Of a stretch of DNA of 47,837 bases, positions 12,001 to 15,000 are shown piece after piece (the first letter of the stretch is position 1; each line of letters starts with the position of its first letter). Source of the DNA: a virus (Duplodnaviria; Heunggongvirae; Uroviricota; Caudoviricetes); the IMG/VR virus record IMGVR_UViG_2713896798_000007; one strand, given 5' to 3'. Made by a program: the position numbers.

Positions 12001-15000
12001 TGATGTCTGGCTCTCTGGTTGCGGGGTATTTCCATCAGAGCAGGCGTATCGCGTATGGCGTAAGACACCGGAGAAGGCTGCTGACCCGACACTGATTCGA
12101 AAGTTACCTGACGGAGAAATACGTCGTTACAACAGACGGCAGAACATAATTTGTCGTGAGTGCCGCCAGAGCGAAGTTATGCAGCGTGTGCTGGCGTTCT
12201 ATCGGGGAAACTTTCAGGAGGCGGTACTGTGAGTGAATTAGCTATCAGGCTTCAATTGTCGCTGGCATTCGCATCAAAGGAGAATGAGATGACCACTTTT
12301 ACAAAAGAGCAGTTAATCAGTCATGTTAGTGAAAATGTAAAGGCGATGAAATTTGCAGTAAAACAGACAGCATTCAAAAATTCTCTCGAGGCAATTGAGT
12401 TGGATTTAGCACTGGCCCTTGTTGCTCAGGCTTCGCTGGAAGCAGAGCCCGTGCTTTATATGAATCGATTTACCGGAAAGACATTCTCACTGGAAGAGCA
12501 ACCCGGTGCTGATAAGGAACCGGAAATATACGTGCCGCTATATGCTGCCCCGCCAGACAGCGCCGCCATGCTTCAGGCTGGAAACTTTCGGGAAAAGAAG
12601 GGTTCGTCAACCAATAATTTTCGGGAAATCTCGGAAACGTCAACCAACTATCCGGTAACTCTGGATGGTTGGATAAGCTGTAGTGAGCGAATGCCGGATG
12701 ACGGTCAGCACGTAATTATTTTATGTGATGGCGCATTCGTTCTTTATGCGCAATATCGAGACGGTGAGTTTTTTGATGTAGTCCGTGATGGTGATGAATT
12801 TTTCGAAACACAGAGCCGCAATGTAACCGACTGGATGCCGCTACCAGAACCGCCGCAGGAGGTGCGCCAATGAACTGGCCTGAAGCATTTGCAATTACAG
12901 GCGTTGCTATGGCTATCGCTTTTTTAGTATATGTTATTTGTCGGTGGGGGTAAAAACGTTCGCCGGGATTAACACCAAAGGAGGGAATATGTCGGATGAT
13001 ATTTCACTGGCAATGGAAGGTGCGCTGGCTGTTATTGCTGTTGTGGGCGTTTACTGCCTGGTTGTGTTTTTGATGGATCGACTAGGGAACTGAATTCATT
13101 ACGATATGGGAATTCCCATATCGGGTAAAAACGGTTTGCGGTAAAGCGAGAGTTAAGTAGAATTGCTGCGGGTGCTTGAGGCTATCTGCCTCGGGCATGA
13201 ACACCAACGGCAGATAGAGAAAAGCCCCAGTTAACATTACGCGTCCGGCAAGACGCTTAACATTAATCTGAGGCCATATCTATGACTTGCACATGTAGGT
13301 TAGCCTCTTACGCGCCGAAAGGCAAGGAGAAGCAGGCTATGAAGCAGCAAAAGGCGATGTTAATCGCCCTGATCGTCATCTGTTTAACCGTCATAGTGAC
13401 GGCACTGGTAACGAGGAAAGACCTCTGCGAGGTACGAATCCGAACCGGCCAGACGGAGGTCGCTGTCTTCACAGCTTACGAACCTGAGGAGTAAGAGACC
13501 AGGCGGGGTAAACCCCCGCCACCTCTGATGTGTCAGGCATCCTCAACGCACCCGCACTTAACCTACTTCGGCGGTTTTTTTTCACGTACTGTGGTTGTGA
13601 ATACGATTGGTATTAGGATATGCTAACAACATTAGCTTGACTAATTTTGTATTGACTTGATTTTTGTTAAAGAACAGGACGGAGAAGTAAGGGGGGCACC
13701 CAATGAGCTACGCACTAAAAAAACACCCGCGATTGACTATTCCCCCTCGCGATAAAAGCGTTGTGGCAGCTCCGCGCCCGGCTATCGATGAAAATTGCAC
13801 TCATCGTGAGCAGGTGAAAAATGCTTTCGATTTCGGTTTTTCTCGTTACGAGAAGGCAATGGAAGAACTTTCAAAAGTGTAATGATGGGTATTGTGCTCT
13901 ATGGCTGAGATTGTTGAAGGAGTGCATTACCTTACGGTTGATGATCTTGTTGAAATCAATCGTTCCCTAATTGAATTACAGACGCCAGATGAGCTCGTTG
14001 GTGTTCTGAGTCCAGATAACTTAAGTTCTTCTCAGGCCCGTCCCAGCATGGTTCGATGGTATGAACAGACTAATGACATGTTTGTACTGGCATCGGTATT
14101 GATTGAAAGTCTGATTCAGAATCATCCGTTTGCTAATGCGAACAAACGAACAGCTATGATGGCTGGTTACGTCTTCTTGTTGTTGAATGGCTATGAATTA
14201 ACAGCACCAGGCGATGAAATCGTGGAAATGGCAGAGGGACTGGCCTGCAAAACCTATACTCGAGAAGATCTCGAGAACTGGTTGTGTTATTGGTCTCGCG
14301 CGTATGACAGCCGGGAATTATGTAAAACAGGCGCAACTATTGTTTTGTATGAAACTATCAAGTTTAAAATGGAACAGCAAAACTAAAGGTGCTTCCAATG
14401 AAAACCCGCTTCGGCGGGTTTTTTGTTGTTTATTTTCGGTGAGTATGATGCATCTGGTTGTACTGATGTGGTTGGCTGATTCTGTTATTCAGGTGGCTTA
14501 TTGCTGTTGATCGGTATGTCTTCACGGCTAGAATCGAGGCTCTTAAGTAGCGCGCAGGGAGAAGAGGGATGGACCCCGAAGGGGAAGAGCTATTTATCTG
14601 GAAGGATTCTGAAGATGAAAATCGAAGAATTGCGTGAAATTTTTAGTGAAAATGGCCTCTATGCTGTGCGCGTTGAGAATGGGAAAGTTGTCTACACAAC
14701 GTTAATCCCTGATGATCATGTAATTTTATCTATCGAGGCATTCATTGAATACCTTGAAAGGCTCGGTTTCAAGGTAGTTCGCGAATGAGTTATAATTCGT
14801 AAGCCAGCCTGAACAACTGGCAACCTACAGCGCCATTGGAGACAGCAATGGCGCATATACAACTGGTCAAACAAACCTCTTCCGGATTACTTCTCCCGGC
14901 GACGCCGGAGAGTTGTGATTTTCTGCATCAAATCAAAATAGGCGAGTGGATACACGCTGATTTCAAGCGCGTTCGTAACTACGCATTCCATAAGCGTTTT

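What the first reader, a model, noticed from the sequence alone, without database searches (positions are those of the whole stretch)
13102..13494. Hok/Gef toxin locus preceded by a perfect 22-bp palindrome
The hok gene (13339-13494) has a 70-codon in-frame upstream frame and GC-rich 3' hairpins. A perfect 22-bp palindrome CGATATGGGAATTCCCATATCG sits at 13102-13123 in its leader. Such a palindrome is unusual and may be a protein-binding site or part of the regulatory mRNA fold. Whether a Sok-like antisense RNA is encoded was not resolved.
Basis: partly seen in the sequence, partly recalled or inferred. Interest (0 to 1): 0.45.

Follow-up and report, generated by a model that had tools for sequence, protein, structure and literature searches.

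The report
Hok toxin locus with relic palindrome
This is an ordinary, already annotated hok/mok/sok toxin-antitoxin cassette in an E. coli prophage; the 22-bp palindrome in front of it lies outside the toxin RNA and is a leftover of a neighbouring KilA-N gene, a gene family that keeps a palindrome at this spot across many phyla.

Summary
CGATATGGGAATTCCCATATCG is a perfect palindrome at 13102-13123. hok is 13339-13494, and the in-frame 70-codon ORF 13282-13494 is mok.

The locus is a canonical type I toxin-antitoxin cassette. It is about 94% identical to hokW/mokW/sokW of phage 933W and is annotated HokD in RefSeq. It has an Rfam sok hit, a tac-fbi 5'-3' fold, and a Sok antisense gene (about 13290 to 13210, minus strand).

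The palindrome is not in the leader. It lies at -68 to -47 from the inferred transcription start (13170), and many intact hok loci, including 933W, lack it.

The same 22-mer encodes D-M-G-I-P-I-S inside KilA-N genes. In sister prophages an intact KilA-N gene lies divergently upstream of hok in the matching orientation. The window copy is therefore a gene remnant at a mosaic junction.

Unexpectedly, KilA-N genes from many phyla keep a palindrome at this position through compensatory changes. This happens in two reading frames and overrides the amino-acid sequence. The cause is unresolved: a selected DNA structure or binding site, or a self-correcting quasipalindrome. A role for the hok-side copy is unproven.

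The parts
12870..12953 (+). ORF1, a 27-aa hydrophobic peptide (MNWPEAFAITGVAMAIAFLVYVICRWG). This is context, not part of the TA system. In 933W-type phages its homologue abuts the hok cassette directly.
   Evidence: ORF list; alignment with 933W; survey of hok upstream regions.
12989..13093 (+). ORF2, a 34-aa hydrophobic peptide (MSDDISLAMEGALAVIAVVGVYCLVVFLMDRLGN), annotated as hypothetical protein WP_001278450.1. Homologues also sit just upstream of hok in loci that lack the palindrome.
13084..13101 (.). Short left flank (GGGAACTGAATTCATTA) that travels with the palindrome in two otherwise unrelated contexts. It weakly resembles the KilA-N coding sequence just 3' of the palindrome, read on the minus strand.
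   Evidence: The PPompW prophage shares it after a paa/adfO gene. It matches the E. coli KilA-N gene at 11-12 of 17 positions (by eye), which is inconclusive on its own.
13102..13123 (.). Perfect 22-bp palindrome CGATATGGGAATTCCCATATCG. It is identical to the intragenic palindrome of KilA-N genes, where it encodes D-M-G-I-P-I-S. Here it is a remnant with no reading frame around it, at -68 to -47 from the inferred hok transcription start.
13123..13133 (+). GGGTAAAAACG, a second copy of the 3' end and stop codon of ORF1 (the first copy is at 12948-12958). It marks the left end of the hok cassette shared by all loci with the TAAAAACGGTTTGCGG upstream end.
   Evidence: Read from the sequence. 933W joins the ORF1 stop directly to TAAAAACGGTTTGCGG. 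In E. coli genomes, similarity to most hok loci starts at window position 13123-13127.
13135..13163 (+). Inferred hok promoter: -35 TTTGCG (13135-13140), 17-bp spacer, -10 TAGAAT (13158-13163).
   Evidence: Inferred from the position relative to the conserved mRNA 5' end and from conservation in alignment A1. It falls below the threshold of the consensus scan. No transcription start was mapped here.
13170..13582 (+). Full-length mok-hok mRNA. It comprises tac (13170-13181), mok SD GAGG (13270-13273), hok SD AAGGAG (13324-13329), the 3' stem-loop (13502-13520), fbi CCTCAACGCACCC (13541-13553), and the terminator hairpin with T-run (about 13552-13582).
   Evidence: The Rfam sok/hok-leader model starts at 13170. 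The fold has 5'-3' closure, dG -160.3 kcal/mol and z -5.65. The mechanism is as described for R1 hok/sok in PMC9841398.
13282..13494 (+). mok, 70 codons, in frame with hok as in mokW/mokC.
   Evidence: mokW annotation in 933W.
13339..13494 (+). hok, a 51-aa membrane toxin of the Hok/Gef family.
   Evidence: Pfam HOK_GEF E=2.9e-23. RefSeq names it 'type I toxin-antitoxin system toxin HokD'.
13210..13325 (-). sok gene. The promoter is -35 TTGCCT (13325-13320) and -10 TAACCT (13302-13297). Sok RNA runs from about 13290 to about 13210 and is complementary to the mok translation-initiation region.
   Evidence: Coordinates transferred from the annotated sokW of 933W. Hairpin plus U-tail fold, z -4.7. 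Conserved in alignment A1. Transcription was not tested.

Best explanation
Positions 13123-13582 hold a standard hok/mok/sok type I toxin-antitoxin cassette in the nin region of a lambdoid E. coli prophage. A weak promoter makes a stable mok-hok mRNA that starts at about 13170. The mRNA is locked shut by pairing of its 5' end (tac) with a 3' element (fbi). Slow 3' trimming opens it for translation of mok and, through coupling, of hok. The short-lived antisense Sok RNA, made from a convergent promoter inside the leader, binds the mok start region and prevents this. These steps are inferred from homology with R1 hok/sok and 933W hokW/sokW.

The 22-bp palindrome is not part of this machine. It lies 47-68 bp upstream of the transcription start. 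It is what remains of a KilA-N domain gene that sits divergently upstream of hok in sister prophages. Illegitimate recombination removed the gene on both sides of the palindrome. This joined ORF1-ORF2 on the left to an 'ORF1 3' end + hok' cassette on the right.

The palindrome has survived intact because this stretch of KilA-N genes is held palindromic at the DNA level throughout the family. Two causes are possible: selection on a DNA structure or binding site, or self-correction of a quasipalindrome. hok does not need the palindrome.
For: hok/sok identity:
- 88-95% DNA identity to phage hok loci, including 933W, where mokW, hokW and sokW are annotated.
- RefSeq annotates the gene as HokD.
- Rfam RF01794 scores 108 bits starting at 13170; Pfam HOK_GEF matches.
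- The RNA folds with tac-fbi closure, z -5.65; Sok folds as a hairpin with a U-tail.
- The R1 mechanism is described in PMC9841398.

The palindrome is outside and dispensable:
- Similarity to 933W and to most E. coli hok loci begins at 13123-13127, right after the palindrome.
- Only 667 of 4188 matching genomes carry the ORF1-ORF2-palindrome stretch.
- 56 of the 140 surveyed phage hok loci lack the palindrome.

KilA-N origin:
- The 22-mer is the DMGIPIS-coding segment of KilA-N genes, confirmed as PF04383 by Pfam.
- Contigs L149, L163, L158 and L147 have an intact 257-aa KilA-N gene divergent from hok, with the palindrome 547 bp upstream of tac in the orientation predicted from the relic.
- Loci of the L157 type keep about 25 nt of clear homology (17 of 23 positions), with weaker similarity out to about 75 nt, to the KilA-N sequence next to the palindrome.
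- The window has no KilA-N reading frame.

DNA-level constraint in KilA-N genes:
- Unbiased samples, found through the QGTWxHP and DGYINATA motifs, show the rare codons CCC and ATA fixed at this spot.
- There are 15 different perfect 22-mers with compensating arms.
- Covariation scores 0.266 against 0.125 in shuffles (0 of 500 reach it) and at most 0.072 in slid controls.
- The same holds in a second reading frame. Compensations predicted from protein variants were confirmed on DNA.
Against: - The transcription start and both promoters are inferred from homology, not mapped. The consensus scan did not call them.
- Homology of the window's left flank to KilA-N is weak (11-12 of 17 positions).
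- The palindrome is identical in four deeply diverged upstream contexts (window, PPompW, L157 and L212 types) whose flanks differ by roughly 15-35%. That could mean the hok-side copy is still under selection.
- Its position at -57.5, in the region where RNA polymerase alpha subunits and class I activators bind, would suit a regulator.
- The relic form (667 genomes) is commoner than the intact KilA-N gene (137 genomes).
Confidence: 0.8

Rival explanations
1. The palindrome is a working operator. A dimeric DNA-binding protein binds at -57.5 and activates or represses the hok promoter, or blocks read-through from the upstream early operon. The most obvious candidate is a KilA-N protein from a co-resident or superinfecting phage. 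This would couple toxin expression to phage state.
For: - The 22-mer is conserved in four diverged hok contexts while the flanks vary.
- It lies just upstream of the -35 and A-tract.
- KilA-N is annotated as a DNA-binding domain.
- One Calothrix locus (L009) has two further palindromes of this family upstream of its KilA-N gene.
- Non-coding clusters of such palindromes exist in L028, L080, L167 and L016.
Against: - The window encodes no KilA-N protein.
- Only 137 of 5426 E. coli genomes carry the cognate gene, against 667 with the relic.
- Many hok loci work without the palindrome.
- Single-base and 1-nt-deletion variants persist in several lineages.
- 133 KilA-N genes have no second site in 300-600 nt flanks.
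- Even the GGGAATTCCC core can be replaced by AGATCT while the palindrome is kept. This argues against sequence-specific recognition.
Confidence: 0.12
2. This is the first reader's idea: the palindrome is part of the hok leader and takes part in the regulatory mRNA fold.
For: As RNA it would form a stable 9-bp hairpin. Read-through transcripts from the upstream operon would contain it.
Against: - It lies upstream of the conserved 5' end and promoter.
- The hok mRNA folds closed without it.
- It is absent from intact homologues such as 933W.
- In the fold of 13084-13169 it forms its own hairpin, with no predicted pairing to the promoter-proximal sequence. Pairing with the hok leader itself was not tested.
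Confidence: 0.03
3. The palindrome is a transcription terminator or insulator. It would end ORF1-ORF2 or early-operon transcripts before they enter hok.
For: It is a hairpin 9 nt after the ORF2 stop codon. Shielding a toxin gene from read-through would make sense.
Against: No U-tract follows on either strand, and the terminator scan does not call it. Loci with ORF2 directly upstream of hok lack it.
Confidence: 0.04
4. The palindrome is a recombination site or hotspot. It would be a short conserved 'linker', or a core site for a structure-specific or tyrosine recombinase. Phage modules would be exchanged at it, which would explain why it sits exactly at mosaic junctions.
For: - Similarity between contexts breaks at the edge of the palindrome: window against 933W and L149, and L028 against L091.
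- Two palindrome clusters lie 96 and 132 nt beyond the 3' end of tyrosine integrase genes.
- The architecture, with 9-11-bp arms around a 4-6-bp centre, resembles Xer/Cre-type core sites (from general knowledge).
Against: - Only 2 of 215 palindrome-bearing loci have an integrase next to the site.
- No recombinase is consistently linked.
- A symmetric centre gives no directionality.
- Junctions at a palindrome are also expected from plain hairpin-stimulated illegitimate recombination.
Confidence: 0.1

Closest known systems
hokW / mokW / sokW of Shiga-toxin phage 933W (AF125520)
   Same: About 94% DNA identity over the whole cassette, window 13126-13567. It has the same in-frame 70-codon mok, a 51-aa Hok, an antisense Sok with the same promoter hexamers, and the same tac and fbi elements.
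   Different: In 933W the small ORF1 homologue abuts TAAAAACGGTTTGCGG directly. It has no ORF2 and no palindrome. There are a few C-terminal Hok substitutions.
hok/sok (parB) of plasmid R1, the paradigm type I toxin-antitoxin
   Same: The architecture and presumed mechanism are the same: a stable mRNA closed by tac-fbi pairing, 3' processing, mok-coupled hok translation, and Sok antisense targeting the mok start (PMC9841398; fold; Rfam hit).
   Different: In R1 mok is out of frame with hok: the mok start is near nt 117 and the hok start near nt 174-176 in PMC9841398, a separation of about 58 nt. Here the separation is 57 nt and in frame, as in chromosomal gef/hokC (EcoCyc coordinates recalled from memory). 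The location is a prophage nin region, not a plasmid.
KilA-N domain genes (Pfam PF04383), e.g. the 257-aa 'KilA-N domain-containing protein' of E. coli prophages
   Same: The 22-mer is identical to the segment that encodes D-M-G-I-P-I-S. That gene lies next to hok, in the matching orientation, in sister prophages.
   Different: In the window only the palindrome and at most about 18 nt of flank remain. There is no reading frame.
Quasipalindrome template-switch 'correction' hotspots in E. coli (Ripley model; Lovett laboratory work; recalled from memory, not checked here)
   Same: The mechanism copies a change from one arm of an inverted repeat into the other. It would give compensatory arm changes with no strand asymmetry (G.T 18 against A.C 21). 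It would also keep a relic perfectly palindromic without selection.
   Different: It is known as a mutational hotspot in the laboratory. It is not known, to my knowledge, as a force that keeps a coding palindrome across phyla. Whether it is fast enough here is untested.
Protein-binding palindromes inside the binder's own gene: lambda ori iterons within gene O; the HK022 Roi site within roi (Clerget and Boccard 1996; from memory, the paper could not be retrieved)
   Same: These are intragenic, dyad-symmetric DNA sites in nin-region or replication genes of lambdoid phages that are bound by the encoded protein.
   Different: No binding has been shown for KilA-N. There is a single site per gene, its sequence varies freely as long as symmetry is kept, and Roi did not appear among KilA-N homologues.

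Membership tests
hok/sok type I toxin-antitoxin (Hok/Gef family) | Small hydrophobic toxin with the Hok/Gef domain | tested here: met
   Pfam PF01848 HOK_GEF, E=2.9e-23, profile positions 1-42 of 42. RefSeq names it HokD.
hok/sok type I toxin-antitoxin (Hok/Gef family) | Overlapping upstream reading frame (mok) whose translation start precedes hok | tested here: met
   A 70-codon ORF at 13282-13494 with SD GAGG at 13270-13273. The same frame is annotated as mokW in 933W.
hok/sok type I toxin-antitoxin (Hok/Gef family) | Antisense Sok RNA gene complementary to the mok start region, with its own promoter and terminator | tested here: met
   Rfam RF01794 at 108.4 bits against a gathering score of 59. 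Homology to the annotated sokW. TTGCCT / 17 bp / TAACCT on the minus strand. Hairpin plus U-tail, z -4.7. Actual transcription was not tested.
hok/sok type I toxin-antitoxin (Hok/Gef family) | Long-range 5'-3' pairing (tac-fbi) that closes the full-length mRNA, plus a protective 3' stem-loop | tested here: met
   In the minimum-free-energy fold of 13170-13585, nt 1-12 pair with CCUCAACGCACCC. dG is -160.3 kcal/mol and z is -5.65, with 0 of 100 shuffles as good. The GC hairpin is at 13502-13520.
hok/sok type I toxin-antitoxin (Hok/Gef family) | Toxicity and post-segregational or prophage-maintenance killing | not testable with these tools
   Needs expression experiments.
   The palindrome ends 47 nt upstream of the conserved 5' end. 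It is absent from 933W-type and many other intact hok loci.
KilA-N gene remnant | Sequence identity to the KilA-N coding segment, with an intact KilA-N gene at the equivalent place and orientation in related prophages | tested here: met
   22 of 22 identity with E. coli prophage KilA-N genes. L149, L163, L158 and L147 have the gene divergent from hok, with the palindrome 547 bp from tac.
KilA-N gene remnant | Flanking homology to KilA-N beyond the palindrome | tested here: inconclusive
   The window's left flank matches at 11-12 of 17 positions only. L157-type loci keep about 25 nt of clear homology (17 of 23), with weaker similarity to about 75 nt.
Functional KilA-N gene (PF04383) | Open reading frame encoding the domain | tested here: not met
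   tblastn of the domain against the window finds only the 7 palindrome-encoded residues.
Intrinsic (Rho-independent) terminator | GC-rich hairpin followed by a U-tract | tested here: not met
   The scan does not call it. The downstream sequence is GGGTAAAAACGG on the plus strand and TAATGAATTCAG on the minus strand.
Tyrosine-recombinase core / att site | Consistent linkage to an integrase gene | tested here: not met
   An integrase lies next to the palindrome in only 2 of 215 palindrome-bearing loci.
Known RNA family | Match to an Rfam covariance model | tested here: not met
   No Rfam hit covers 13102-13123 at E up to 1, apart from a weak (17.7 bits, E 0.18) minus-strand sok-model match over 13097-13228.

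The most novel reading that the evidence does not exclude
The 22-bp palindrome is not inert debris. It would be a portable DNA element that KilA-N genes from Proteobacteria, Cyanobacteria, Chloroflexi, Bacteroidota and giant-virus contigs maintain by compensatory change, in two reading frames and at the expense of the amino-acid sequence. It could be a cruciform or hairpin, or a dimer-binding site, used for autoregulation, replication or recombination. The copy kept in front of hok would still be active. It would link hok transcription, or the exchange of the hok cassette, to KilA-N-type phage proteins.
Probability: 0.15. Interest if true: 0.75.

Novelty: new variant of a known kind. Interest (0 to 1): 0.45.

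Why it matters
For the window itself it matters little. The hok/mok/sok cassette is known and annotated, and its upstream palindrome can be filed as a gene remnant rather than a new regulatory element. This avoids a false lead.

The by-product is more interesting. A widespread viral and bacterial DNA-binding domain family carries, at one fixed codon position, a DNA palindrome whose symmetry is preserved by coordinated changes. These changes dictate which amino acids appear: M with I, A with A, T with V, and in the other frame Y with H/R and R with I/N.

Two readings are possible. The palindrome may be an undescribed cis-element embedded in coding sequence. Or it may be a natural, long-term example of quasipalindrome self-correction shaping protein evolution. 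Both are directly testable. I found no description of this in the searchable literature.

Tried and rejected
1. Known RNA family for the palindrome. Rfam at gathering and at E up to 1 found only the sok/hok-leader model.

2. Intrinsic terminator. It is not called and has no U-tract.

3. Sense-strand RNA hairpin in KilA-N mRNA. G.T (18) and A.C (21) mismatches are equally frequent, so there is no strand signature.

4. Sequence-specific recognition of a GGGAATTCCC core. This is weakened by variants with AGATCT, TTCAGATGTGAA or GGGTATACCC centres that keep the symmetry.

5. Autoregulatory operator arrays. None of 133 KilA-N genes has a second site in its flanks. L009 is an exception.

6. att site of an integrase. 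It is adjacent in only 2 of 215 loci.

7. Cross-phylum hits of the 18-mer with long extended palindromes and non-CG flanks (L008, L032/L045, L053, L215, L067). I first read these as covarying stems. They are better explained as chance matches among the many long perfect terminator palindromes, because only 9 nt need to match.

8. HK022 Roi as a direct precedent. The paper was not retrievable, and Roi is not among the KilA-N homologues.

9. A search for Bacteroidota-type KilA-N in viral contigs found nothing. It was replaced by a protein search plus four contig look-ups.

10. Literature searches for the sequence, and for KilA-N with 'palindrome', found nothing relevant.
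Full report
**1. Observation**

The window sequence shows CGATATGGGAATTCCCATATCG at 13102-13123, and it is its own reverse complement. It is unique in the window even with three mismatches allowed. It is the longest perfect palindrome present; the next longest are 16 nt.

In 200 block-shuffled windows, 5 contained a perfect palindrome of 22 nt or more. Taken alone, the palindrome is therefore only mildly improbable. Its exact recurrence elsewhere shows it is not chance (see section 4).

The ORF list confirms the 70-codon frame 13282-13494 and the internal ATG at 13339. The GC-rich 3' hairpin (13502-13520) and the terminator (about 13552-13582) are visible in the sequence and in the fold.

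**2. The hok locus is a known system with all its parts**

The region is 88-95% identical to hok loci of many E. coli phages.

- In phage 933W the homologous stretch is annotated as mokW (213 nt), hokW (156 nt, same stop codon, so in frame) and the antisense sokW.
- The window is 100% identical to E. coli strain 2013C-3264, where PGAP calls the gene 'type I toxin-antitoxin system toxin HokD'.
- Pfam gives HOK_GEF at E=2.9e-23.
- Rfam's sok/hok-leader model RF01794 matches 13170-13344 at 108 bits.

The RNA 13170-13585 folds with its first 12 nt (GGGUGCUUGAGG, tac) paired to CCUCAACGCACCC at 13541-13553 (fbi). dG is -160.3 kcal/mol and z is -5.65. This is the closed full-length form described for R1 hok (PMC9841398).

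On the minus strand, TTGCCT (13325-13320), a 17-bp spacer and TAACCT (13302-13297) precede the position equivalent to the sokW start (13290). The transcript folds into a hairpin with a U-tail, z -4.7.

The promoters are inferred from homology. The generic consensus scan does not reach its threshold for them.

**3. The palindrome is outside the transcript and is optional**

The inferred promoter is -35 TTTGCG (13135-13140) and -10 TAGAAT (13158-13163), with the start at 13170. This puts the palindrome at -68 to -47.

- Similarity to 933W begins at about 13126, immediately to the right of the palindrome.
- In 5426 complete E. coli genomes, 4188 match part of 12860-13260, but only 667 cover the ORF1-ORF2-palindrome stretch. 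Most matches start at window position 13123-13151.
- A survey of phage contigs sharing the hok promoter/tac 33-mer shows several upstream arrangements:
  - the window type;
  - a PPompW type, with the same palindrome plus 18 nt of left flank, placed after a paa/adfO gene;
  - an L157 type and an L212 type;
  - several types without any palindrome, including the 933W type, where ORF1 abuts TAAAAACGGTTTGCGG, and a type with an ORF2 homologue directly upstream of the promoter.
- Variants with a 1-nt deletion or a single substitution in the palindrome also exist.

**4. Where the palindrome comes from**

Exact searches for the central 18-mer found 95 stretches in one-genome-per-species bacterial and archaeal contigs, where about 9 are expected by chance. 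More than 120 viral contigs also matched. Most hits carry the full 22-mer.

About half of the hits lie inside genes encoding '...DGYINAT...RLKTT.EFL.ELS-DMGIPIS-ELIQ..KGG...QGTWVHP...'. Pfam identifies these as KilA-N, PF04383, and phage records annotate them likewise.

In lambdoid contigs L149, L163, L158 and L147, an intact 257-aa KilA-N gene lies divergently next to hok. The palindrome there is 547 bp upstream of the tac element, against 66 bp in the window. Its orientation is exactly that implied by the relic.

L157-type loci retain about 25 nt of clearly homologous KilA-N sequence beside the palindrome (17 of 23 positions), with weaker similarity out to about 75 nt. The window retains at most about 18 nt of weak similarity and has no KilA-N reading frame.

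To the right of the palindrome, GGGTAAAAACG repeats the last codons and stop of ORF1 (12948-12958). This is how 933W-type cassettes begin. The window arrangement is therefore best read as a junction between an 'ORF1-ORF2-KilA-N' module and an 'ORF1-hok' module. The breakpoints hug the palindrome.

**5. Why a remnant could stay perfect: the KilA-N palindrome**

This was unexpected, so I tested it on samples collected without reference to the palindrome.

*First sample.* KilA-N genes were found in viral contigs through the peptide pattern QGTWxH[PE]. All 26 distinct sequences with D[MV]GIPI use GAT ATG/GTG GGR ATT CCC ATA NCG. The rare codons CCC and ATA are fixed, while neighbouring codons vary synonymously.

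*Second sample.* KilA-N genes were found in metagenomes through DGYINATA and QGTWVHP. The 60 distinct sequences nearly all carry a 22-28-nt palindrome centred on the G-I-P codons, but with many different arms:

- CCGATGCGGGAATTCCCGCATCGG (DAGIPAS)
- CCGTTACGGG..CCCGTAACGG (VTGIPVT)
- CCGAAACGGG..CCCGTTTCGG (ETGIPVS)
- CGATATCGGAATTCCGATATCG (DIGIPIS)
- GAGGTCTGCGGG..CCCGCAGACCTC (SAGIPAD)

and others. The residues on either side change together exactly as reverse-complement codons require.

*Formal counts on 75 distinct sequences:*

- 83.1% of cells are paired, against 75.0% in shuffles (0 of 500 shuffles reach the observed value).
- 97 cells are changed on both sides, against 40.7 in shuffles.
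- The covariation score is 0.266, against 0.125 in shuffles and at most 0.072 in slid controls.
- One pair is T-A in 43 sequences, C-G in 31 and something else in 1.
- 34 of the 75 sequences are perfect 22-mers, of 15 kinds.
- G.T (18) and A.C (21) mismatches are equally common. Nothing therefore points to a sense-strand RNA hairpin. The constraint looks like one on double-stranded DNA symmetry.

*Second reading frame.* Bacteroidota KilA-N genes carry the same 22-mer one nucleotide out of frame, as R-Y-G-N-S-H-I. From protein variants alone I predicted which synonymous partner codons would be needed to keep symmetry. Four contig look-ups confirmed the predictions:

- RYGNSHN = CCGTTATGGGAATTCCCATAACGG
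- RYGNSRI = AACCGATACGGGAATTCCCGTATCGGTT
- RYADLHN = CCGTTATGCAGATCTGCATAACGG, a perfect palindrome with a different centre
- RYSDVNI = 10 of 12 pairs

So the symmetry is conserved, not a particular sequence.

*Other features.* More divergent KilA-N genes can lose the palindrome. There is normally one site per gene and none in the flanks.

**6. What keeps it palindromic**

I see two live explanations.

*(a) Selection on a DNA-level element.* It could be a cruciform or hairpin, or a site for a symmetric protein that co-evolves with it, such as the KilA-N protein itself. Evidence in favour:

- the dominance of one sequence across phyla and frames;
- rare extra sites upstream of a KilA-N-RHH gene in Calothrix;
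- non-coding clusters of different palindromes of this family.

*(b) A self-perpetuating quasipalindrome.* Template switching during replication copies a change from one arm into the other. This mechanism is known from laboratory mutagenesis, and I cite it from memory. It needs no function. It predicts compensations without strand bias, and it would keep remnants perfect after the gene dies.

The data here do not decide between them. I found no paper describing this feature.

**7. Back to hok**

The simplest reading is that the hok-side palindrome is a passenger. Arguments for this:

- the prophage encodes no KilA-N protein;
- the cognate gene is in only 137 of 5426 E. coli genomes, against 667 with the relic;
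- many hok loci do without it.

Arguments against a pure passenger:

- it is identical in four diverged contexts whose flanks have drifted;
- it sits where activators and the RNA polymerase alpha subunit dock.

I put about 0.8 on 'relic, not required', about 0.12 on a working operator, about 0.1 on a recombination hotspot (which is not exclusive with the relic reading), and a few percent on the terminator or leader ideas.

**8. Verdict**

The hok/mok/sok part is already known and annotated.

What is new is the general property of KilA-N genes that it exposes. For that reason I score interest as moderate rather than low.

Noticed in passing
Loci L289-L448 and L452-L455 (KilA-N genes from viral and metagenome contigs); window 13102-13123 is one copy: KilA-N genes of many phyla keep a 22-28-nt DNA palindrome at the G-I-P codons. 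It is maintained by compensatory changes, in two reading frames, with the amino acids co-varying as reverse-complement codons dictate. I found no published description.
   Followed up: yes
L028 2530-2705; L091 1935-1995; L016 6915-6965; L017 3920-4040; L080 4455-4497; L167 13857-13915; L063 7880-7975: Non-coding clusters of 2-4 different palindromes of this family lie within 30-250 bp of each other; the examples seen share a GGGAATTCCC-type centre but have different self-complementary arms. In L016 and L091 the cluster lies 96-132 nt beyond the 3' end of a tyrosine integrase gene. L028 and L091 share about 110 bp and diverge exactly at the palindrome edge.
   Followed up: partly
L009 2788-3132 (Calothrix sp. 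MAG): Two extra palindromes (GTTTATGGGAATTCCCATAGAC and CCGATACGGGAATTCCCGTATCC) and half-sites lie upstream of a KilA-N gene. The C-terminus of that gene is an RHH domain nearly identical to that of the neighbouring ParG-like protein, next to a ParA-like ATPase. This looks like a partition or operator region.
   Followed up: partly
L099 5710-6075 (also L124 and L194): In an AT-rich phage contig, a GC-richer segment of about 330 nt that looks structured is bracketed by AAAAACGGGAATTCCCGTTTTT and CGATATGGGAATTCCCATATCG. It has no Rfam match at E up to 0.1.
   Followed up: partly
L005/L196 (Bacillota, 383-aa ORF); L027 (Comamonas); L050 (Azospirillum, 1988-aa ORF): The exact 22-mer sits in frame as DMGIPIS inside large ORFs that otherwise do not look like KilA-N.
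   Followed up: no
window 12870-12953 and 12989-13093: Two tiny hydrophobic ORFs (27 and 34 aa) lie directly upstream of hok. Homologues of one or the other abut hok in most phage contexts, with or without the palindrome. Neither has a Pfam family.
   Followed up: partly
window 12948-12958 and 13123-13133: An 11-bp direct repeat GGGTAAAAACG (the end and stop codon of ORF1) brackets ORF2 plus the palindrome. Relative to 933W-type phages, this 175-bp stretch is an insertion, or else it is deleted in 933W.
   Followed up: partly
window 13703-13882 and 13892-14386: A Fic/DOC-family (death-on-curing) toxin gene lies immediately downstream of hok (Pfam E=7.5e-12). It is preceded by a 59-aa ORF with no family match, possibly its antitoxin. 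Two toxin systems therefore sit side by side.
   Followed up: partly
window 1557-1735; 6958-7146 (-); 16308-16506 (+); 17281-17340; 17427-17620; 17621-17682 (-): Other Rfam hits in the prophage: the RalA antitoxin sRNA, two C4-antisense/isrK modules in opposite orientation, a tRNA-like hit, STnc100 and the anti-GcvB sRNA AgvB.
   Followed up: no
L449 (Bacteroides phage LoVEphage), KilA-N gene: The arms are kept but the centre is broken: GCCGATATG-CATATTCC-CATATCGGC (ADMHIPIS). Two other Bacteroidota phage KilA-N genes (L450, L451) show only weak or different palindromes, so the feature is not universal in the family.
   Followed up: partly
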